From a bacterium (GTDB lineage: Bacteria; Patescibacteriota; Saccharimonadia; Saccharimonadales; UBA4665), in assembly GCA_021810025.1 (NCBI GenBank), contig JAJZJS010000001.1, positions 154,790-218,789 of the forward strand: a DNA stretch of 64,000 bases, read 5' to 3'. Every line of letters begins with the position of its first letter. The first letter of the stretch is position 1. Positions 6,162-26,186 of this stretch are shown here, piece after piece. A program made the translations under genes and the position numbers. The notes under the pieces were generated by a model that did not search any database, had not been told where the DNA came from, and saw nothing but the letters and a program-made list of their open reading frames with translations.

Positions 6162-6812
6162 CTAAGGTTTAACGGCAGGTGTTGAGCTAGAAGTCTTGTT
6201 GGTAGCGTTTTGAGGAGTGTTGCTGCCACTTGTTCCAGCTGTAGTTTGATCGGAACATTTTTGACCATTTGGATTTTGTTTCCAGAAAGCTGCAACCGCT
6301 TTAGAGACCTGACCATTTGGAGACAAATTTTCCCAGAACGTTACTTCTCTGGTGTTAATTATCATCTGGTCCAAAGGAGCATGTAATTCACATCCTAGCT
6401 TCACTAGTGTGACATTTGATGCTGAATTTGATGTGCTACTCGTGCTACTGCTTGTATTAGATTGAAGATAAAAAATATTAACCAGGTTAAAGTATGAACT
6501 GTTGATATCTTTGATATTTCCAAAATAGACCTGACCAGTATTTAGGAAAACGGCCTGTAGATCATTAGTATTGATGTATTTGCTTTGAGAGTCGCTTTTG
6601 TTGCCATAGATTAAAAAGACCAATAATCCAATTAAGACAATGCTAACAGCAACAAATAATACTGCTTGGCTGGCTCGAAAGAAACGATCCTTCATATTAC
6701 TATTTTTACCCTCACTACCTAAGTGTGGCTTAGGGCTATAATCAACGCCATTAACACCATTAACTCGAGATACGTTATTACTTTGCTGCGAACCACGATT
6801 GTTTATGTCCAT
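6162..6812 (-). CDS. hypothetical membrane-anchored protein
   Basis: 216-aa ORF with the TM helix VLFVAVSIVLIGLLVFLIY followed by an extracytoplasmic domain containing an S/T tract. Confidence 0.6.
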   Translation of the reverse strand: MDINNRGSQQSNNVSRVNGVNGVDYSPKPHLGSEGKNSNMKDRFFRASQAVLFVAVSIVLIGLLVFLIYGNKSDSQSKYINTNDLQAVFLNTGQVYFGNIKDINSSYFNLVNIFYLQSNTSSSTSSTSNSASNVTLVKLGCELHAPLDQMIINTREVTFWENLSPNGQVSKAVAAFWKQNPNGQKCSDQTTAGTSGSNTPQNATNKTSSSTPAVKP

Positions 6813-7032
6813 TTTACTCCACCTATACTTTATTTATACTGTTAAAGTTTATTATAGCGCATTTTTAAAAGCAAGCGAATCTTTATTTAAATTAAATGCT
6901 TAAAGCAATAAGGGTGCTTTAATCTGTTAATAGGCTAAGAGTAACCTAGATTACAACGAAAAAGAGTTGACAACTAAAATATTTAAAGAGTATCTTAAGG
7001 GGTACATTACTAAATAAGAGAGGGAGATAAGC

Positions 7033-13193: not shown

Positions 13194-13268
13194 CGCGGGG
13201 TGGAGCAGCGGCAGCTCGATTGGCTCATAACCAATAGGTCGCAGGTTCGAGTCCTGCCCCCGCAACCA
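13194..13268 (+). tRNA. tRNA-fMet (CAT), initiator type
   Basis: CGCGGGGTGGAGCAGCGGCAGCTCGATTGGCTCATAACCAATAGGTCGCAGGTTCGAGTCCTGCCCCCGCAACCA has the C1xA72 mismatch diagnostic of bacterial initiators. Only two of the three canonical anticodon-stem G:C pairs are present (stem ATTGG/CCAAT). CCA is encoded. Confidence 0.9.
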
Positions 13269-13345: not shown

Positions 13346-13364
13346 CAGGTTCGAGTCCTGCCCC
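13346..13364 (+). repeat. 19-nt direct repeat of the T-arm / 3' part of tRNA-fMet (att-like scar)
   Basis: CAGGTTCGAGTCCTGCCCC occurs at 13242-13260 inside the tRNA and again at 13346-13364. A further T-loop-like GGTTCGAAC follows at 13370-13378. Confidence 0.7.
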
Positions 13365-19473: not shown

Positions 19474-19572
19474 ATGAGCGTGATAGGAACGAATTGGAAC
19501 CAAATTAAGTCCGAATTAATAACTATGAGGGAAATAGTTAAGACAGTTAGAGGAGAACAATACTATGTTTAG
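19474..19572 (+). CDS. 32-aa micro-ORF, paralogue 1 (MSVIGTNWNQIKSELITMREIVKTVRGEQYYV)
   Basis: Hand-translated. A second copy at 20676-20780 conserves the peptide pattern although the DNA has diverged after the first 28 nt. Confidence 0.35.
   Translation: MSVIGTNWNQIKSELITMREIVKTVRGEQYYV
19478..19505 (+). repeat. 28-nt perfect direct repeat, copy 1 (GCGTGATAGGAACGAATTGGAACCAAAT)
   Basis: Identical to 20683-20710. Confidence 0.9.
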
Positions 19573-19574
19573 TT

Positions 19575-19808
19575 TTAGTTTATTTCGAGTATAATTTTTA
19601 GTTTTTCTTTGACTTCATTGAGTTTTGCTTCTGTAATTACTCCAAGCTCTCGTTTTATCTTAGCCTTATCAAGTGTTGCTATTTTGTCTGGACGAATAAA
19701 ACTATTAATTACAATTGATCCAACATTATTTAGTATGATAAAGGAATGAACAATGATGATATTGAACATAATGCTGTTTTGTGAATAAGGCGATCTAGCA
19801 ATAAACGT
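19575..19808 (-). pseudogene. MazF/PemK-family toxin remnant (5'-truncated)
   Basis: The C-terminal block SFIRPDKIATLDKAKIKRELGVITEAKLNEVKEKLKIILE matches the MazF pattern (q)iRtlDk.Rl.k.lG.ls...l..v. The N-terminal 25-30 aa, including the conserved G-D/E region, are missing, and the frame closes at 19809-19811. Confidence 0.55.
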
Positions 19809-19874: not shown

Positions 19875-20474
19875 ATGGCAGGTTCTCCAGGAGCAGGACA
19901 ATCTGAATTCGTAAAACAATATAAAAAGTCTGTAGAAATAGTTGTGGGTTCACCGCCAGTAATAATTGATCCAGATGCTATTAGAGAAGACTTGCCTGGT
20001 TATACAGGTGCCAATTCGTATATTTTCCAAAGGCCAAAATCAATAGTTGTTGATGATCTTTTCCATTCGGTTTTAAATAATAATCAAAGCGCAATCATAG
20101 ATAGTACCTTTTCAGAATTTACTCGAGCTAAGCATAATATTGATAAAGTTTTAATTAAGTACCCAGTTGTAAGCATTTCTTATATATTTCAGCATCCGCT
20201 TATTGCATGGCATTTTACTCAGATTAGAGAAGCGGTAGAAGGTAGAAATATAAGAAAAATTGATTTTATAAATAAATTTTTAGGGGCTAGAGAAACCGTA
20301 AACAGAGTAAAGAAAGCATATGGAAAAAAAGTTCAACTAAACTTAGTTTTAAAAGACTATAAGGATACCCAATCTAATAAAGCTGTTGAAAAAGTATTTA
20401 ATAGCGTAAGTAATGTTAAAGAATGCATTGATTTTCCGTATACTAAAGAAAGTTTGGAAAGGTTATTAAAATGA
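19875..20474 (+). CDS. zeta-toxin-like P-loop kinase, probably inactive (Walker A Lys replaced by Gln, N-terminus missing)
   Basis: PIIIFMAGSPGAGQSEF corresponds to the zeta/PezT Walker A G-x-x-G-x-G-K-S/T but carries Q. It is followed by IIDPDAIREDLPGY and AIIDSTFSE. The frame is open upstream only to 19785, with no upstream start, and abuts the MazF remnant head-to-head. Confidence 0.5.
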   Translation: MAGSPGAGQSEFVKQYKKSVEIVVGSPPVIIDPDAIREDLPGYTGANSYIFQRPKSIVVDDLFHSVLNNNQSAIIDSTFSEFTRAKHNIDKVLIKYPVVSISYIFQHPLIAWHFTQIREAVEGRNIRKIDFINKFLGARETVNRVKKAYGKKVQLNLVLKDYKDTQSNKAVEKVFNSVSNVKECIDFPYTKESLERLLK

Positions 20475-20675: not shown

Positions 20676-20780
20676 ATGGTAGGCGTGATAGGAACGAATT
20701 GGAACCAAATAAAACGAGAGCTGATAGATATGTACCAAATAGCTAAACAGGTTAGAAAAGAAACTCTAGTAAATGTATGA
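20676..20780 (+). CDS. 34-aa micro-ORF, paralogue 2 (MVGVIGTNWNQIKRELIDMYQIAKQVRKETLVNV)
   Basis: Hand-translated. It shares VIGTNWNQIK.ELI.M..I.K.VR.E with the ORF at 19474-19572. Confidence 0.35.
   Translation: MVGVIGTNWNQIKRELIDMYQIAKQVRKETLVNV
20683..20710 (+). repeat. 28-nt perfect direct repeat, copy 2
   Basis: Identical to 19478-19505. Confidence 0.9.
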
Positions 20781-20945
20781 GTGAATATACATAAACCATG
20801 GATAATTATCCAAGTGGAAAATATTTATTAGGAAAAGAATTAAAGATGTTCAATGATTTAGTTAATAAAACAAACAATTGGCACTAAGGTGGAGAGATTT
20901 GACAAAAATCTTTACCCTAAACTCTCCAATAGAAAAATGGTTAAT

Positions 20946-21638
20946 TTATAAACTTTCACAATTGTTAATTCCTTGTTGAATTTGATTTAATTCAGTTGTC
21001 AAAGAATTTATAGCACTACTTAAAGAGGCATATTGATTACTATATGCTTGAGTTATTTCACCGGCAGTTGCTCCTGAATAGCCACTTTCTTGATTTGCTG
21101 CATTAGGAAGATTTGCCAAAGAGTTTTCGGTTGATGTTAATTGCTGTTCCAAGCTCGAAAAGTTAGAATAATTCGGTATGTTATTTAGGCAAGATAGTAT
21201 TGCAGTTTGGCTTTGATTTGTTGTTGAATAAGTACTTAGGTTTTGTTGATCAGTATTGTATTGTTGTTGATATTGTTGATATTGTGCTTCTTCTTGTTGA
21301 ATCTCTTGCTCCATCTGATTATAGTTGTTTTGTTGTTGATTTGCAGCATTTTGAGCATTGAGTGTATCTTGGTTGGCCTGATCTTGGTATTCTTGTGCCA
21401 GAGCTTTATCTTGTTGATATTGTGCTTCTTCTTGTTTGAGAGTAGATTGTTGATTGGTTGGTGAGGGGGTAGTAGAGATAGAATTTTTATTTATTTCATT
21501 TGGTTGTTGACTTTTCTGATAGTGAGAAGAGGTATCTTTAATATTTACTGTGCTTGGACTATGGATATGAGTCAGTAAAGTACTGATAACCAATAATGAT
21601 AATAATGCTCCTCCAATAATGCCAAAAACTTTTTTCAT
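20946..21638 (-). CDS. hypothetical N-terminally anchored Q/N-rich coiled-coil protein with internal repeats
   Basis: 230 aa with the signal/TM helix IIGGALLSLLVISTLL and a Q/N-rich body containing a duplicated QEEAQYQQ unit. The underlying DNA repeat GTTGATATTGTGCTTCTTCTTGTT occurs at about 21273 and about 21413. Confidence 0.6.
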   Translation of the reverse strand: MKKVFGIIGGALLSLLVISTLLTHIHSPSTVNIKDTSSHYQKSQQPNEINKNSISTTPSPTNQQSTLKQEEAQYQQDKALAQEYQDQANQDTLNAQNAANQQQNNYNQMEQEIQQEEAQYQQYQQQYNTDQQNLSTYSTTNQSQTAILSCLNNIPNYSNFSSLEQQLTSTENSLANLPNAANQESGYSGATAGEITQAYSNQYASLSSAINSLTTELNQIQQGINNCESL

Positions 21639-21809
21639 AAAATACTTTGTACTTCTATAGTGTAATTCTAAATAAATTGTACTCCAGATATAACATTTTT
21701 CATATTTTCAAACGATTCATTTTCTATTATTTTATGATTTGTCATAATCATTCGGTTAAATTGAATTTAAAAAAGCTGTTATTTATGATTAAGAATAACA
21801 TGGTATCTT

Positions 21810-22745
21810 TTAAAACACCTCTCTTGGTCGTGAACCGCTAGCTTTACCAATAATCTTTCTTTCCTCCATATCTTCTAAATATCTAGCGGCCTGGCTATAA
21901 CCAATCCCCAATTCTCTTTGTAACAAAGAACTACTTGCTATTTTATATTCTCGAACAATCTTAATTGCATCTTCTAGCGTTGCATCTTTTCCCTTAAGTC
22001 TATTAATCAATCCTCTCTCTTCCATTATTTTAACTAATTCCAATGCCCTAGACTTCGAAATATGCAATCTATTTACCAAGTTATCGACAGATGGTCTTCC
22101 TACTGAATTTAGCATATTTATAGAATCTTCAATGTCTATTTCTAACTCTGATTTTTTTTCTTTTACCATTTTTAGATATTTATCATTTAAACTTTTCAAT
22201 TCAGCATGCAATTCATTAAGAATACTCCATCTACTATCACCCATGGAATTAACATATGAATCGTCAGATGGAAATGGTGAATCTAAATTATATAACGTTC
22301 TCATTGTTGCCAAATTATTTGTGTAAAAACCTCTTTTTTCAAAACCATCCCTTACTTTTACATATTCATTTTCTATTTCTTTTGTACGCTCTTCAATGTT
22401 TTTTATATACATCTCTTGAATGTTTACGAGTTCTTTTTTAGTATATAATTTTGGCTTATCGTCATTAATGCTTTGTATTTTTTTAGTTTTAAATAGCTCG
22501 TTTTTTAATCCTTCCAAACGTATTTTTTCTCTAAGCACTTCAATTTGGTTTGTTCTTAAATTACTTAAAAAGTCTAAATATGCCATATCACATTCTTGTT
22601 GGGTCAGAGAGTCTTTATAGGTCTGAGAATTTAAGTATTTTTGTTGAGCTATGGCAATATTATTATTAGAGTTCTGTTGTATTGCTCTATAAATAAAATA
22701 TCCTACAATTATTACTGCCAGAATTAACCAAAACATAATATCCAT
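21810..22745 (-). CDS. membrane-anchored coiled-coil protein with a C-terminal FtsK-gamma winged-helix domain and no translocase motor
   Basis: The C-terminus DATLEDAIKIVREYKIASSSLLQRELGIGYSQAARYLEDMEERKIIGKASGSRPREVF matches the FtsK gamma pattern (aS.SllQR.l.iGY.rAar..d.mEe.giig...gsk.ReV) closely. It is preceded by a second wHTH-like segment, and there is an N-terminal TM helix FWLILAVIIVGYFIY. No Walker A/B motifs are present. I chose the start at ATG 22745; the track ORF extends to 22811 and would overlap the divergent gene. Confidence 0.7.
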   Translation of the reverse strand: MDIMFWLILAVIIVGYFIYRAIQQNSNNNIAIAQQKYLNSQTYKDSLTQQECDMAYLDFLSNLRTNQIEVLREKIRLEGLKNELFKTKKIQSINDDKPKLYTKKELVNIQEMYIKNIEERTKEIENEYVKVRDGFEKRGFYTNNLATMRTLYNLDSPFPSDDSYVNSMGDSRWSILNELHAELKSLNDKYLKMVKEKKSELEIDIEDSINMLNSVGRPSVDNLVNRLHISKSRALELVKIMEERGLINRLKGKDATLEDAIKIVREYKIASSSLLQRELGIGYSQAARYLEDMEERKIIGKASGSRPREVF

Positions 22746-22796
22746 GCTTATAATACAACTGAAATTAATTTTAATAAATAGTATAATTAAGGTGTT

Positions 22797-23207
22797 ATGA
22801 CTATAAGACAAAGAAAAGTAATAAAAGAATTAGTGGAATATGGTGGAACTATGTCCTCTGCCATGAGAAAAGCAGGATATTCTGATGCTATGATAAAAAA
22901 TCCTCAAAAAGTAACCAAATCTAAAGGCTTTAAAGAAATTTTAGAAATTATGGGAATAAATGATAATGCTCTTGCTAAGACCCTTAAGGAAGGTCTTGAG
23001 GCTGTTAAGATTGTAAAATTACGTAATACATATACTGCTATACCAGACTTTTCTACCAGACATAAATTTCTTGAAACGACATTAGAACTTAAGGGATATA
23101 TAGGTCGTAATTCTAAACCTAATTTAGATAATGTTAATGTTGTTTTTGTGAATAATATTCCCAGACCTTCTTTTGATAAAAAAACAGTAAAACAATTAGA
23201 AAAATGA
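22797..23207 (+). CDS. phage terminase small-subunit-like HTH protein
   Basis: The N-terminus IRQRKVIKELVEYGGTMSSAMRKAGYSDAMIKNPQKV follows the Terminase_2 pattern (L..kq..F..eY...gn...A...AGYS...A......l..n..V). Length is 136 aa, with TATAAT and AAGGTG signals upstream. Confidence 0.45.
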   Translation: MTIRQRKVIKELVEYGGTMSSAMRKAGYSDAMIKNPQKVTKSKGFKEILEIMGINDNALAKTLKEGLEAVKIVKLRNTYTAIPDFSTRHKFLETTLELKGYIGRNSKPNLDNVNVVFVNNIPRPSFDKKTVKQLEK

Positions 23208-23238
23208 ATGATCCTGTTGATAACTCCATTTTAAGCTT

Positions 23239-24018
23239 ATGATAGGTTCATTATCTGAGCCGAAGGATGCAACGCTCAATGATGTTATTAAGTTGCTAAA
23301 AATAGATTATGATATTGGATTGATTGTTAAGAAAAGAGTACTAAAAGATTGCAATAATTATTTAGATGGGACATATAGTCCTAGGATAATTAGGGGTGGC
23401 GGTAAACAAGACCCTGAACTTGAATTTATCTATCGTAATTGGTTTGAGGGAGTATTGGCTACTCTCAATTTTCCTATTATCCCACATAGGTACTTACATG
23501 ATTTTTCGTCGACTAGTTCTAGCATTAATCTTAATCTTGCACTTTCAGCAAATAGTTTTTCACAAGGTGAAAATTTAATTAACAAATCATTCGACGCTGC
23601 TCTAAAAGCTTTATCGATAATAATAGATAGACTTAAAAAAGAAGAATCTTCAAATATAAAAATAGTAAATCTTAAAAAGATAAAACAAAGCATTTATATC
23701 AATATTGAGCCTGACGGGGTTGATGTTAAATTACATGAATTTGAAGAGGGTTCGCCCTTAGAGCAACTTTTTGATTATGTTTATCTTCATCAAAACGAAA
23801 TAATAAGTGGAGACCAAATAAACCTAGATACAAGAGGATACAGCAAAAAACGTCATCTTTCAGAGGATTTTAGGGCTATGGGATTTAATAATAAACTCAA
23901 GAAATTATTCTTTTCAATATGTACTTCTATGGAAGTAAAGATGAATATAAAATCAAATATTGCTTCGGAGAATCTCAAAGAACTTTTAATCGGACTCAAA
24001 TCGGATTTAAACAAATAG
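23239..24018 (+). CDS. hypothetical protein
   Basis: 259-aa ORF with no recognisable motif; island cargo. Confidence 0.55.
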   Translation: MIGSLSEPKDATLNDVIKLLKIDYDIGLIVKKRVLKDCNNYLDGTYSPRIIRGGGKQDPELEFIYRNWFEGVLATLNFPIIPHRYLHDFSSTSSSINLNLALSANSFSQGENLINKSFDAALKALSIIIDRLKKEESSNIKIVNLKKIKQSIYINIEPDGVDVKLHEFEEGSPLEQLFDYVYLHQNEIISGDQINLDTRGYSKKRHLSEDFRAMGFNNKLKKLFFSICTSMEVKMNIKSNIASENLKELLIGLKSDLNK

Positions 24019-24111
24019 TTTTGCTAAATTAACACTTTAATTATGTATTAGACCAAGATTTAAAATCGGACTTTCCTAACTAAGCTTATCTAATAACCTA
24101 TAGTCGGTAGT

Positions 24112-24423
24112 ATGACAAATGGCATTAAAGAAATACTTAATAATTCTCAGTTGGCAAATGATTCATTTAAAAAAAGAGATTTAGTTAAGAATGTTTCACT
24201 TGATGAAGTCGATAGATTATCGGATGAACTAGTTAGGATCTACAAAAACCCTAGTTATAAAAAGTGGTATTGCAAAGCAATTTATAGGTTTGGAGCTCAA
24301 CAAATCCGTGATTGGATGGCTCGAGCAAGCGATGGTAAATACCCAGAGAGATTATTTACTACTTACGTAAATCAGGCCAATGGTTTTATTAGGGGAGATG
24401 GACAAAATGTTGATCTCCGATAA
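24112..24423 (+). CDS. hypothetical protein
   Basis: 103-aa ORF. The segment KKWYCKAIYRFGAQQIRDWMARASDGKYPERLF feels like replication- or DNA-binding-associated helical modules, but I cannot assign a family. Confidence 0.5.
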   Translation: MTNGIKEILNNSQLANDSFKKRDLVKNVSLDEVDRLSDELVRIYKNPSYKKWYCKAIYRFGAQQIRDWMARASDGKYPERLFTTYVNQANGFIRGDGQNVDLR

Positions 24424-24562
24424 ACCAATTATAACCATTAAAGAAGCCAGAAAATTATTAGGAAAAGATTTTAGGCATTTAGCAGATGGACAAATAGAGG
24501 ATTTGATAGCCTTATTAAATAGTATTGCTATAGATAAAATAATTGATTCGGTTCCAAATTAG
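24380..24562 (+). CDS. hypothetical small protein directly upstream of the recombinase (candidate directionality or regulatory factor)
   Basis: ORF of 52-60 aa; the more likely start is ATG 24407 (MLISDKPIITIKEARKLLGK...). It overlaps the end of the previous gene. Its position immediately 5' of int is the only functional hint. Confidence 0.4.
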   Translation: MVLLGEMDKMLISDKPIITIKEARKLLGKDFRHLADGQIEDLIALLNSIAIDKIIDSVPN

Positions 24563-24608
24563 AAATCGATAGATGCAAATAAAAGACTAATAATGTTAAA
24601 ATGATTCC

Positions 24609-26153
24609 ATGAGTGTAGGAATCATCTATACAAGAGTTTCAACAAAAGAACAGGCAGAGAAACGATTAAGTTTAGATAACCAAGAAAAAGAGTGCAAAGC
24701 ATTTGCATATAAGCAACAAAATATACAAATTCCAGATATAAATATATTTAGTGATAGAGGAGAATCTGCTAAATTTGCAGATCGTCCTGAACTACAGAGA
24801 ATGCTCCAATTTGTTAAAAACAATAAGGGAAAGATAGAAGTTTTATATATCTGGAAAATCGATAGATTAGCAAGAAACTTAGGAGACTATTATGGGATTA
24901 AGGTTGCTCTTGGGAAGTATGGAGTAAAGATAGTATCGGTTACAGAGCCCATAGACGATGATCCAGTGGGAAGATTTCTAGAAGCCATATTAGCTGCTGC
25001 AGCTCAATTTGATAATGAAATTAGAGCCATTAGAAGTGTAACAGGCATGAGACAAAGAGTTGAACAAGGAGAATGGCCTCATAGTGCACCGATAGGTTAT
25101 ATAAAACGAAACAGGAGCGTAGTTATTGATTCAATATATGGATCTAAAGTACAAGATGTTCTTAATAAGTTTGCAACAGGACTTTATAGTGTAACCGATA
25201 TTTCTCGTTATGCATTCGAGATAGGCATTAAAACAAAGAGCGGTAAGCCAAAATCATACGAGGCAATGAAAAAGCTCCTCATAAATTTCTTCTATTCTGG
25301 TTATACTAAAAATAAACTTAGCGATAAGGTTATCAAGGGCAGACATACTCCCTTAGTTGATGAAGAAATTATTTATAAGAATATAGATATTATCAACAAA
25401 AATAAAAAAATTATCGTAATAAAAGGAGATGATCTTTATTCTCTTAGAGGAACATTGCTTTGTACTAATTGCGGAAATAAATTAACGGCTAGTGCACCAA
25501 GAGGAAGAAGTAGAAACTACTCATTATATCAATGTGGCCGTAAGACGTGTACTAGAGCCATTACAGGTAAAAAAGCTAGCGTAGACGTAGATAAAGTTCA
25601 TAAACAATTTAGAGAGCTTCTAGAAGCTCGTAGACCGTTAAATAAAGGAATTGCAAGACTGTACAAGACCTTAGTAATAAAAGCATGGAATGATGAGTAT
25701 GGAAAAGCTCTAGAAACTTCTACACAAGTTAATCGTGAAATAGAGACGTATAAAGAGCTTAGATTCTCGACAAATCAAAAATTTATTGCAGATAAGATTA
25801 CCGAAGAAGACAAGAATGAACAAATAAATAGATTGGATGAAAAAATAGAAACTTTAGAACAAGAAAAGGTCGAAATGGACAGTTACGTTAAAGAAAAAGA
25901 ACAGGTAGTAGATGAAGCTATGACTTTTATTCAGACTCCCGATATTTTCTGGAACCGAGCCAGTACAAGAAGTAGGCGAGCTATTCAGTCATTACTTTTT
26001 CCATCCGGAATACCTTATGATTTTGAAACCGGATTTGGAACCACAGAAGATATAGATTCCTATCTGTTATTAAACAAAATTACTGAAAAAAAAGCAAAAA
26101 AAGACGATTTGGTAGCGACGAGTGGACTTGAACCACTGACCCCAGGCTTATGA
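24609..26153 (+). CDS. large serine recombinase (serine integrase)
   Basis: The resolvase catalytic domain reads VGIIYTRVSTKEQ...DRGESAK...IDRLARN. A recombinase domain follows, then a Cys-rich zinc ribbon (LLCTNCGNKL...YQCGRKTC) and a long coiled coil. Total length is 514 aa, and the last 44 nt are antisense to the tRNA. Confidence 0.9.
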   Translation: MSVGIIYTRVSTKEQAEKRLSLDNQEKECKAFAYKQQNIQIPDINIFSDRGESAKFADRPELQRMLQFVKNNKGKIEVLYIWKIDRLARNLGDYYGIKVALGKYGVKIVSVTEPIDDDPVGRFLEAILAAAAQFDNEIRAIRSVTGMRQRVEQGEWPHSAPIGYIKRNRSVVIDSIYGSKVQDVLNKFATGLYSVTDISRYAFEIGIKTKSGKPKSYEAMKKLLINFFYSGYTKNKLSDKVIKGRHTPLVDEEIIYKNIDIINKNKKIIVIKGDDLYSLRGTLLCTNCGNKLTASAPRGRSRNYSLYQCGRKTCTRAITGKKASVDVDKVHKQFRELLEARRPLNKGIARLYKTLVIKAWNDEYGKALETSTQVNREIETYKELRFSTNQKFIADKITEEDKNEQINRLDEKIETLEQEKVEMDSYVKEKEQVVDEAMTFIQTPDIFWNRASTRSRRAIQSLLFPSGIPYDFETGFGTTEDIDSYLLLNKITEKKAKKDDLVATSGLEPLTPGL

Positions 26154-26186
26154 GTCCTGTGCTCTAACCAGCTGAGCTACGCCGCC
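26110..26186 (-). tRNA. tRNA-Met (CAT), elongator type, with non-Watson-Crick pairs in the acceptor and anticodon stems
   Basis: The reverse complement is GGCGGCGTAGCTCAGCTGGTTAGAGCACAGGACTCATAAGCCTGGGGTCAGTGGTTCAAGTCCACTCGTCGCTACCA. The D and T stems are perfect, while the acceptor stem has G1.U72 and G5.U68 and the anticodon stem has A31.G39. The D arm and variable loop resemble E. coli metT as I recall it. Confidence 0.8.

What the first reader, a model, noticed from the sequence alone, without database searches (positions are those of the whole stretch)
21810..22745. Orphan FtsK-gamma (KOPS/XerD-interacting) domain on a membrane-anchored coiled-coil protein lacking any motor
Seen: the last 57 or so residues (DATLEDAIKIVREYKIASSSLLQRELGIGYSQAARYLEDMEERKIIGKASGSRPREVF) match the FtsK gamma winged-helix signature very closely. 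A second, weaker wHTH-like segment precedes it (VDNLVNRLHISKSRALELVKIMEERGLINRL). The rest of the protein is one N-terminal TM helix plus about 200 aa of charged coiled coil, and no Walker A or B motif is present.

Established knowledge: in FtsK/SpoIIIE the gamma domain reads KOPS/SRS polarity motifs and activates XerD at dif.

Inference: a mobile-element-encoded, motor-less gamma domain tethered to the membrane could do one of three things. It could hijack or block Xer-mediated recombination, tether DNA to the membrane or septum, or act as a decoy against host FtsK. Any of these would be an unusual accessory function.
Basis: partly seen in the sequence, partly recalled or inferred. Interest (0 to 1): 0.65.

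Follow-up and report, generated by a model that had tools for sequence, protein, structure and literature searches.

The report
Membrane-anchored motor-less FtsK-gamma protein
A small mobile element inserted in a tRNA gene of a Saccharibacteria genome encodes an intact membrane-anchored protein that carries the DNA-reading "gamma" domain of the FtsK chromosome pump but no pump; such motor-less gamma proteins turn out to be common and uncharacterised, so this is a new family of a known but unexplained kind.

Summary
Window 21810-22745 (-) encodes a 311-aa protein with these parts:
- one N-terminal TM helix;
- about 190 aa of conserved, helical, 33%-charged sequence;
- a degenerate partial gamma-like wHTH at residues 215-252;
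- a full FtsK_gamma domain at residues 253-311 (Pfam 82 bits, E 1.9e-23; best structural matches are FtsK gamma, TM 0.75-0.86).

It has no Walker motifs, and the window holds no FtsK motor. It is not a broken ftsK, because about 16 homologue clusters share the same N-terminus and carry 0, 1 or 2 gamma copies.

The gene lies on a roughly 5.3-kb integrative element (about 20.8-26.1 kb). The element's large serine recombinase gene runs into tRNA-Met. All six family contexts that could be read carry a serine recombinase, and five of them abut a tRNA gene.

The claim that this is unusual is overstated. An exhaustive search gave 15,505 gamma-matching clusters. Most of the top hits are short and lack a Walker A motif, and several also have a TM anchor with tandem gamma domains. 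122 phage records carry the domain, and the literature already notes orphan phage gamma genes of unknown function.

My best guess (about 0.4) is a membrane-DNA tether serving maintenance or transfer of the excised element. Xer/FtsK interference and membrane-bound regulation are not excluded. I found no target DNA motif.

The parts
21810..22745 (-). Gene for the 311-aa membrane-anchored, motor-less gamma-domain protein. Coordinates include the stop codon. An alternative start is ATG 22736.
22680..22736 (-). N-terminal transmembrane helix, residues about 4-22. It is followed by R/K, so the rest of the protein is predicted to be cytoplasmic.
   Evidence: hydropathy scan; family alignment
22131..22673 (-). 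Family-defining helical module, residues about 25-205. It is 33% charged and contains the conserved motifs IAQQ.YLNS, PK.YTKKE, PFP..D and S.WS.
   Evidence: no Pfam or PDB relative
21990..22103 (-). Degenerate, truncated gamma-like wHTH, residues 215-252. Helix 1 and the wing are missing. The positions equivalent to E. coli FtsK R1289, R1300 and E1303 are replaced by N, E and K.
   Evidence: 10.4 bits, iE 2.8e-4
21813..21989 (-). Complete FtsK-gamma winged-helix domain, residues 253-311.
20946..21638 (-). Downstream co-oriented gene for a 230-aa Q/N/S/T-rich protein with an N-terminal signal or TM segment. A compositionally similar secreted protein follows the gamma gene in the L001 and L013 elements.
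22797..23207 (+). Divergently transcribed 136-aa protein, 61-62% identical to its counterpart in the L001 element. Its HTH-like N-terminus recalls small-terminase HTHs by eye, but no search supports that.
23239..24562 (+). Three element ORFs of 259, 103 and 60 aa with no family match. The 60-aa ORF (24380-24562) is conserved in L001. A PF12728 HTH_17 gene occupies the same position in L118.
24609..26153 (+). Large serine recombinase (Resolvase + Recombinase + Zn ribbon). Its last 44 nt run antisense into the 3' half of tRNA-Met.
26110..26186 (-). tRNA-Met (CAT), the integration target and right-hand junction. It is 100% identical to the tRNA at the uninterrupted site in relative L019.
20766..26110 (.). 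Approximate extent of the integrative element, about 5.3 kb. The left limit is inferred from where homology to the element-free relative L019 ends (window 20765). The exact left junction lies somewhere in 20766-20945.

Best explanation
Shown:
- This is an intact, conserved gene for a single-pass membrane protein. Its cytoplasmic part ends in a genuine FtsK-gamma winged helix, preceded by a decayed second copy. It has no ATPase motor.
- It is a signature gene of a small family of integrative elements of about 5-12 kb. These carry a large serine recombinase and insert into the 3' half of tRNA genes. The host here is a Saccharibacteria (CPR) bacterium.
- The gene is transcribed divergently from the recombinase operon and is followed by a gene for a secreted low-complexity protein.

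Inferred mechanism: the protein is a membrane-DNA tether, not a translocase. The conserved helical module would oligomerise at the membrane and present several gamma domains. These would bind double-stranded DNA, either the excised circular element or the host chromosome. That would hold the element at the membrane or septum, where it is replicated, inherited or handed over. This is functionally like the membrane DNA organiser p16.7 of phage phi29, or like the clt-binding end of Streptomyces TraB without its motor.
For: Identity of the domain.

Conservation of functional residues. The gamma residues whose mutation makes E. coli FtsK KOPS-blind are partly kept: R1300 corresponds to R288 and E1303 to E291, but N1296 is replaced by S284. 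The XerD-contacting R1289 corresponds to R277. This follows from the alignment, with numbering derived from the E. coli sequence. The role of R1289 is from PMC5052618. The KOPS-blind residues are from my own knowledge of Sivanathan et al. 2006.

Membrane anchor and topology.

Intactness and selection: about 16 clusters at 50% identity share the same N-terminus.

Element context. A serine recombinase is present in 6 of 6 contexts with at least 3 kb of upstream sequence (window, L001, L013, L100, L102, L118). It overlaps tRNA-Met, -Glu, -Asn, -Gln and -Asn in five of them. The element-free relative L019 has the same tRNA-Met with none of the element genes.

Autonomous replication. One related element (L013) encodes a G2P-type rolling-circle Rep (Pfam 25.2 bits, gathering score 21.7). 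At least some of these elements therefore replicate once excised and would benefit from a tether.

Gamma as a portable module. In phages the domain is fused to small terminase, RdgC or the sliding clamp. TM + helical + two-gamma proteins recur in metagenomes.
Against: - No DNA target was found. There are no over-represented 8-10-mers in four elements beyond a coding repeat.
- Some family members are complete ORFs with no gamma domain (P0011, P0069). DNA binding is therefore not essential to the family's core function.
- No Rep was recognised in the window's own element.
- Oligomerisation and coiled-coil character are untested.
- The gamma surface that binds DNA overlaps the surface that binds XerD (PMC5052618), so residue conservation does not discriminate between the two roles.
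- No experiment exists on any orphan gamma protein (PMC8190038).
Confidence: 0.4

Rival explanations
1. Xer/FtsK interference. The tethered gamma domain either contacts the host XerD or competes with host FtsK gamma for polar chromosomal motifs. By contacting XerD it would activate or sequester it, as FtsK gamma does and as the phage TLC factor XafT does functionally. By competing it would act as a decoy. Either way it would manipulate dimer resolution or segregation to the element's benefit.
For: The arginine equivalent to E. coli R1289, the key XerD salt-bridge residue, is invariant in the three-member alignment (R277) and retained in most gamma-bearing members. Its role is described in PMC5052618. 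The domain is a close gamma match.
Against: - That arginine is conserved in essentially all gamma domains, so it is not diagnostic.
- The elements carry their own serine recombinase and need no Xer.
- No dif-like site occurs above chance, and none lies in the element.
- The window holds no xer or ftsK to compare with.
- Gamma-less family members exist.
Confidence: 0.15
2. Membrane-bound transcriptional regulator or immunity factor. The wHTH binds the 51-bp divergent promoter region (22746-22796). It would repress the recombinase and excision operon, cI-like, with membrane anchoring coupling this to an envelope signal.
For: The gene sits in the classic divergent position opposite the operon that ends in Xis-like and recombinase genes. 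This holds in every context. wHTH domains are common repressors.
Against: - Gamma domains are not known as operator-binding repressors.
- The intergenic region shows no repeats or palindromes.
- Promoter-like sites are not above chance.
- Gamma-less members keep the same N-terminal module.
- A conserved 136-aa HTH-like protein is a more ordinary regulator candidate.
Confidence: 0.15
3. Envelope or division module. The conserved TM + helical module, together with the co-transcribed secreted Q/N/S/T-rich protein, acts at the cell envelope. Possible roles are superinfection exclusion, surface modification, or a YhcB/ZapG-like divisome contact. Gamma would be only an accessory add-on.
For: The N-terminal module is the conserved core, and gamma is present in 0-2 copies. 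A secreted low-complexity gene follows in three element types and is translationally coupled in L013. One member carries the JGI annotation 'membrane-anchored protein YhcB (DUF1043)'.
Against: There is no Pfam DUF1043 hit or any other hit for the module. No PADLOC defence-model hit was found. Most members do keep a high-scoring gamma domain, which argues that DNA or Xer binding matters.
Confidence: 0.15
4. Artefact: the 3' fragment of a disrupted ftsK, or a generic MarR-type wHTH miscalled as gamma.
Against: - No motor remnant lies upstream or anywhere else in the window.
- Homologues at 24-51% identity have the same TM start and architecture.
- The gamma HMM scores 82 bits, against less than 20 bits for MarR-type families.
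- FtsK gamma tops the structure search.
Confidence: 0.01

Closest known systems
Gamma subdomain of FtsK/SpoIIIE DNA translocases (Pfam PF09397; PDB 2J5P, 2VE8/2VE9, 5DCF)
   Same: Same sequence family and fold: 82 bits, 37-38% identity, TM 0.75-0.86. Arg and Glu of the recognition helix, the wing Arg and the XerD-contact Arg are retained.
   Different: It is not attached to an alpha/beta ATPase motor. It is preceded by a decayed second copy. It is anchored by one N-terminal TM helix through an unrelated 190-aa module. It is encoded on a mobile element. The residue equivalent to the KOPS-specificity residue N1296 is Ser.
Orphan FtsK_gamma proteins of phages (PHROGs 13700, 6152, 36563, 6576, 22882 and 4212; Gordonia phage Hedwig gp56; gamma-small-terminase fusion of Bacillus phages Sam46 and Sam112)
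   Same: These are motor-less proteins of about 200-350 aa that carry the gamma domain and are encoded by mobile genetic elements. Their function is unknown.
   Different: Similarity is confined to the gamma domain. None shares the N-terminal TM + helical module. This family was not found in IMG/VR. It sits on tiny recombinase elements that have no virion genes.
TM + coiled-coil + tandem-gamma proteins of about 200 aa in uncultured bacteria (P0037, P0062, P0063, P0064, P0094, P0103, P0128)
   Same: Same overall design: an N-terminal TM helix, a helical spacer, one or two gamma domains and no motor.
   Different: The spacer is shorter and unrelated. The genomic setting differs: two of them lie next to restriction-modification operons, and one follows an FtsK_alpha-only gene. 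No serine-recombinase element is seen in those contexts.
TraB of Streptomyces conjugative plasmids and AICEs, with Spd membrane proteins
   Same: It is membrane-associated and encoded on an element. Its C-terminal gamma-like wHTH reads DNA of the element (8-bp repeats in clt). It is accompanied by small membrane or secreted proteins (PMC4447253).
   Different: TraB has the FtsK-type ATPase that does the pumping; this protein has none. No clt-like repeats were found in four elements.
Phage phi29 p16.7, a membrane organiser of phage DNA replication (own knowledge, not checked here)
   Same: Architecture and proposed role match: an N-terminal TM helix, a coiled coil, and a C-terminal dsDNA-binding domain that holds replicating element DNA at the membrane.
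   Different: The DNA-binding fold is different and there is no homology. A replication role is untested here.
XafT of the Vibrio satellite phage TLC (own knowledge, not checked here)
   Same: An element-encoded factor that substitutes for FtsK gamma in activating XerD.
   Different: It is not homologous to gamma and not membrane-anchored. It serves elements that integrate through Xer, whereas these elements carry a serine recombinase.

Membership tests
FtsK_gamma domain (PF09397) | Sequence match to the family profile above the curated threshold | tested here: met
   82.4 bits against a gathering score of 30.6, E 1.9e-23, profile positions 3-61 of 63. 74.5 bits against an HMM built from gamma domains of motor-bearing FtsKs only.
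FtsK_gamma domain (PF09397) | Three-helix winged-helix fold superposable on solved FtsK gamma | tested here: met
   The AF2 model has 2j5p, 2ve9, 2j5o and 2ve8 as top PDB hits: TM (target) 0.75-0.86, rmsd 1.7-2.4 A. Foldseek E-values are weak (about 0.03) because the query was the whole 311-aa model.
FtsK_gamma domain (PF09397) | Residues needed for KOPS reading in E. coli (N1296, R1300, E1303) and for the XerD contact (R1289) | tested here: inconclusive
   R1300, E1303 and R1289 are conserved as R288, E291 and R277. N1296 is Ser284 (alignment; PMC5052618). Conservation is compatible with DNA binding, XerD binding or both.
FtsK_gamma domain (PF09397) | Binds a polar 8-bp motif and/or activates XerD | not testable with these tools
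   Needs EMSA or SELEX and a Xer recombination assay. No candidate motif emerged in silico.
FtsK/SpoIIIE DNA translocase | RecA-type alpha/beta motor with Walker A and B (PF01580) N-terminal to gamma | tested here: not met
   No Pfam motor hit. No Walker patterns. tblastn with six FtsKs matches only the gamma region in the window.
Streptomyces TraB-type conjugative translocase | FtsK-like ATPase, plus a C-terminal wHTH, plus repeated 8-bp recognition sites (clt) on the element | tested here: not met
   The wHTH and the membrane anchor are present. The ATPase is absent. No over-represented 8-10-mers occur in four elements.
Phage orphan FtsK_gamma proteins (e.g. PHROG 13700) | Full-length similarity to a PHROG family | tested here: not met
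   Seven PHROGs hit, at E 1e-10 to 8e-5. Every hit covers only residues about 253-311.
Large-serine-recombinase integrative element | The element carries a resolvase-domain recombinase with recombinase and Zn-ribbon domains, abuts its target gene, and is absent from a related genome at the same site | tested here: met
   (PHROG 95 integrase, E 3e-73). tRNA overlap. Element-free site in L019. The exact left junction is not resolved.
YhcB/ZapG (DUF1043) membrane-anchored coiled-coil proteins | Match to PF06295 / DUF1043 | tested here: not met
   No such hit at E <= 1. Only a source annotation on the distant member P0069.

The most novel reading that the evidence does not exclude
The TM-gamma protein is the DNA-recognition half of a minimal, ATPase-less transfer or inheritance system. 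It would bind the excised element and dock it at the septum or at a cell-cell contact, together with the co-transcribed surface protein. The host's own FtsK motor or the competence and type IV pilus machinery of a neighbouring cell would then do the pumping. This would be a 'TraB in trans' strategy suited to ultra-small epibiotic Saccharibacteria.
Probability: 0.07. Interest if true: 0.8.

Novelty: new variant of a known kind. Interest (0 to 1): 0.4.

Why it matters
The gamma domain is textbook biology only as the steering and Xer-activating tip of the FtsK/SpoIIIE pump. These data show it is widely used without a pump, on phages and small integrative elements and often tethered to the membrane, and nobody knows why.

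This family gives a clean, compact test case: one TM helix, one good gamma domain, and a 5-kb element with a defined integration site. It also lies in a lineage (Saccharibacteria/CPR) whose mobile elements are almost undescribed. Finding what DNA or protein the domain binds would show whether mobile elements use gamma to read host chromosome polarity, to mark their own DNA, or to manipulate Xer.

The serine-recombinase/tRNA elements themselves could be useful as integration tools for CPR genetics.

Tried and rejected
- GTDB genome scan with the three-member alignment: 72 pattern matches, none confirmed.
- Third homologue search with the C-terminal 110 aa: no scored candidates, so the search was wasted.
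- Word-indexed search with the 17-member profile: added only P0011 and P0069.
- IMG/VR scan: no relative.
- Pfam, PHROG and PADLOC on the other element ORFs (136, 259, 103, 60 and 230 aa, and their counterparts in L001, L013 and L102): nothing significant except the G2P-type Rep in L013 and NUDIX and helicase genes in L102.
- Small-terminase-like HTH in the 136-aa protein: seen by eye, not supported by BLASTP against the Sam46 TerS or by any HMM, so left as a lead only.
- clt- or iteron-like repeats: none in four elements. The only enriched 8-mer is a Gln-codon repeat inside the 230-aa gene.
- dif-like site: 5 matches against 4.0 expected, none in the element.
- Displaced tRNA 3' fragment at the left end: none. 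The left junction is therefore bounded only by loss of homology to L019.
- Promoter and terminator scan: at chance level.
- Rfam: only tRNAs.
- One literature search was wasted by a loose query.
- Rejected: the disrupted-ftsK reading and the generic-wHTH reading (see rivals).

Full report
**1. What is in the sequence**

The ORF at 21810-22811 (-) is best read from ATG 22745 or ATG 22736. The same protein is called as 311 aa and as 308 aa on other contigs. Homologues start directly at the hydrophobic helix.

The protein has one N-terminal TM segment at residues about 4-22. Basic residues follow it, which by the positive-inside rule places the rest of the protein in the cytoplasm (inference). 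Residues about 25-205 are 33% charged. AlphaFold2 predicts them as several long helices separated by low-confidence loops (mean pLDDT 64, pTM 0.57).

The C-terminal 59 residues match Pfam FtsK_gamma at 82.4 bits (E 1.9e-23; gathering score 30.6). The only solved structures found by sequence are FtsK gamma domains and the XerD-gamma fusion. FtsK gamma is also the best structural match for the model: TM 0.75-0.86, rmsd 1.7-2.4 A, 37-38% identity.

I built an HMM from gamma domains of motor-bearing FtsKs only. It gives 74.5 bits over its whole length for residues 254-311. It gives a weak, partial hit (10.4 bits, iE 2.8e-4, HMM positions 14-51) for residues 215-252.

There is no Walker A or B pattern and no motor domain. 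Six full-length FtsKs match nothing in the 64-kb window except this gamma region. Only the label 'coiled coil' remains unproven.

**2. It is a real gene family, not a broken ftsK**

The word-indexed search found few relatives. An exhaustive HMMER search of 1.84 billion cluster representatives found about 16 clusters that share the N-terminal TM helix and the roughly 190-aa module. That module contains conserved motifs (IAQQQYLNSPEYK, PK.YTKKE, PFP..D, NEDN.SSWSMYE). It has no Pfam or PDB relative.

Members carry two gamma domains (P0004, P0006), one (P0003, P0007-10, P0013, P0015) or none. At least two gamma-less members are complete ORFs inside their contigs (P0011, P0069). So the N-terminal module defines the family, and gamma is a frequent but dispensable addition.

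**3. Genomic setting**

LepA, FtsH, MurJ and TilS place the window in Candidatus Saccharibacteria. LepA is 65-75% identical to its matches in the 80 loci kept, most of them labelled Saccharibacteria or Saccharimonadales MAGs.

The gene is transcribed divergently from an operon of five ORFs: a conserved 136-aa ORF, ORFs of 259, 103 and 60 aa, and a 514-aa large serine recombinase (Resolvase + Recombinase + Zn ribbon; PHROG integrase E 3e-73). The last 44 nt of the recombinase gene run antisense into the 3' half of tRNA-Met.

The same geometry recurs with other tRNAs:
- tRNA-Glu in L001;
- tRNA-Asn in L013 and L102;
- tRNA-Gln in L100.

In L118 an HTH_17 Xis-like gene and the N-terminus of a serine recombinase sit at the contig end. 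Thus all six contexts with at least 3 kb of upstream sequence carry a serine recombinase.

The closest element-free relative, L019, has an identical tRNA-Met and the flanking pilin and tilS genes, but none of the genes between 18.8 and 26.15 kb. Homology is lost to the right of window 20765. That bounds the element to about 20.8-26.1 kb, roughly 5.3 kb.

A gene for a secreted Q/N/S/T-rich protein follows the gamma gene in three element types. In L013 the two are translationally coupled.

One related element encodes a G2P-type rolling-circle Rep (25.2 bits, above the gathering score of 21.7). No virion, terminase or T4SS gene was recognised in any of them. The family is absent from IMG/VR.

**4. 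How unusual is a motor-less gamma protein?**

Not very. The exhaustive search returned 15,505 clusters at E <= 1e-3. Of the 134 best non-family hits, 97 are 350 aa or shorter, 90 of those start with Met, and none has a Walker A motif. Many have two or three gamma domains (P0012, P0018). Seven have the same TM + helix + gamma-gamma design as this protein, with unrelated spacers.

Seven PHROG families match through the gamma region, six of them with profiles of about 250-355 positions. tblastn finds the domain in 122 phage records. By their annotations it is fused to small terminase, RdgC or the sliding clamp, or it stands in proteins labelled 'FtsK-like DNA translocase'. At least one of these records, H35, is a bacterial contig carrying a full-length ftsK, so the count is an upper bound. 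One of the 'translocases', Gordonia phage Hedwig gp56 (339 aa), has only the gamma domain by Pfam.

[quoted passage not shown] The best BFVD structural match is that paper's gamma-terminase fusion.

**5. Mechanism**

The gamma domain keeps Arg and Glu of the recognition helix (E. coli R1300 and E1303 correspond to R288 and E291) and the wing Arg. N1296 is replaced by Ser. The residue equivalent to R1289, which forms the key salt bridge with XerD, is also kept (R277) (alignment; PMC5052618). That paper also shows that the DNA and XerD surfaces overlap, so conservation cannot separate the two activities.

I searched for a DNA target and found none:
- no enriched 8-10-mers in four elements apart from a Gln-codon repeat;
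- no dif-like site above chance;
- nothing notable in the 51-bp divergent intergenic region.

The evidence is therefore architectural: a cytoplasmic dsDNA-reading domain on a membrane stalk, encoded by a small element that excises and, at least in one relative, replicates. From this I favour a membrane-DNA tether (confidence 0.4). It would be analogous to phi29 p16.7 (own knowledge) or to the clt-binding end of TraB without its motor (PMC4447253).

Rivals at about 0.15 each are Xer/FtsK interference, a membrane-bound regulator of the divergent operon, and an envelope function of the N-terminal module with gamma as an accessory. The gamma-less members weigh somewhat against every DNA-centred model, including mine.

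**6. Comparison and verdict**

Membership of the FtsK_gamma domain family is met by sequence and by fold. Membership of the FtsK/SpoIIIE or TraB translocases is not met, because there is no motor. Similarity to phage orphan families is limited to the domain.

The finding is a new family, and a new architectural variant, within a known but uncharacterised class. It lies on a previously undescribed type of serine-recombinase/tRNA integrative element in Saccharibacteria.

The mobile-element inference is right. The functional ideas are untested, and the sense of rarity is overstated. Interest is moderate (0.4).

Noticed in passing
window 24609-26186; L001 6981-8571; L013 5589-7145; L100 5089-6825; L102 346-1988: In five loci the 3' end of a large serine recombinase gene runs antisense into the 3' half of a tRNA gene (in L100 through the whole gene). 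Four different tRNAs are involved: Met, Glu, Asn (twice) and Gln. The recombinases are only 24-29% identical to each other. This looks like a family of tRNA-targeting serine-integrase elements, in a Saccharibacteria host for the window and in undetermined hosts for the other loci.
   Followed up: partly
window 19475-19570 and 20680-20780; L019 3965-4047: An approximately 80-nt segment occurs twice (first 28 nt identical, 74% identity overall) and is conserved in the related genome L019. It reads as a small ORF of about 31 aa (VIGTNWNQIK.EL..M..I.K.VR.E). The two copies bracket a MazF/PemK fragment (19575-19769, -) and a zeta-toxin gene (19875-20474, +). It has no Rfam match.
   Followed up: partly
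window 13194-13268 and 13346-13364: The last 19 nt of a second tRNA-Met (CAGGTTCGAGTCCTGCCCC) are repeated exactly, about 80 nt downstream of the gene's end. This looks like an att-type scar of another integration or excision event.
   Followed up: no
L110-L113 (gene at 6487-6990 followed by 7001-7606 in L110); L114 7001-7633: Other TM + helix + two-gamma proteins of about 200 aa occur in uncultured bacteria. One directly follows a 167-aa gene that has only the FtsK_alpha domain (no beta/ATPase), and type I/IIG restriction-modification genes lie about 5 kb upstream in the same locus. Another directly follows a type I R-M operon. Neither has a PADLOC match. They could be a split or degenerate FtsK, or a defence-island component.
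   Followed up: partly
window 23263-23292 versus 21960-21989: The N-terminus of the 259-aa element ORF (EPKDATLNDVIKLLK) resembles helix 1 of the gamma domain (GKDATLEDAIKIV). It shows up as a 30-nt inverted repeat with 80% complementarity. The similarity does not extend further.
   Followed up: no
L116 1709-2728 (Gordonia phage Hedwig gp56) and other actinophage hits: A protein annotated 'FtsK-like DNA translocase' in Gordonia phage Hedwig contains only the gamma domain by Pfam (339 aa, no motor), so in that case the annotation is misleading; the similarly annotated Gordonia and Mycobacterium phage hits were not checked. In other phages the feature annotated over the gamma match is RdgC, the sliding clamp or the small terminase.
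   Followed up: partly
L013 7170-8333 and 8290-8595; L102 2584-4818 and 11372-12097: Related elements carry extra cargo. L013 has a G2P-type rolling-circle Rep and a SpoVG-like gene. L102 has a ResIII/HNH-repeat helicase and a NUDIX gene. Element size therefore varies from about 5 to 12 kb around the conserved recombinase and gamma-protein pair.
   Followed up: partly
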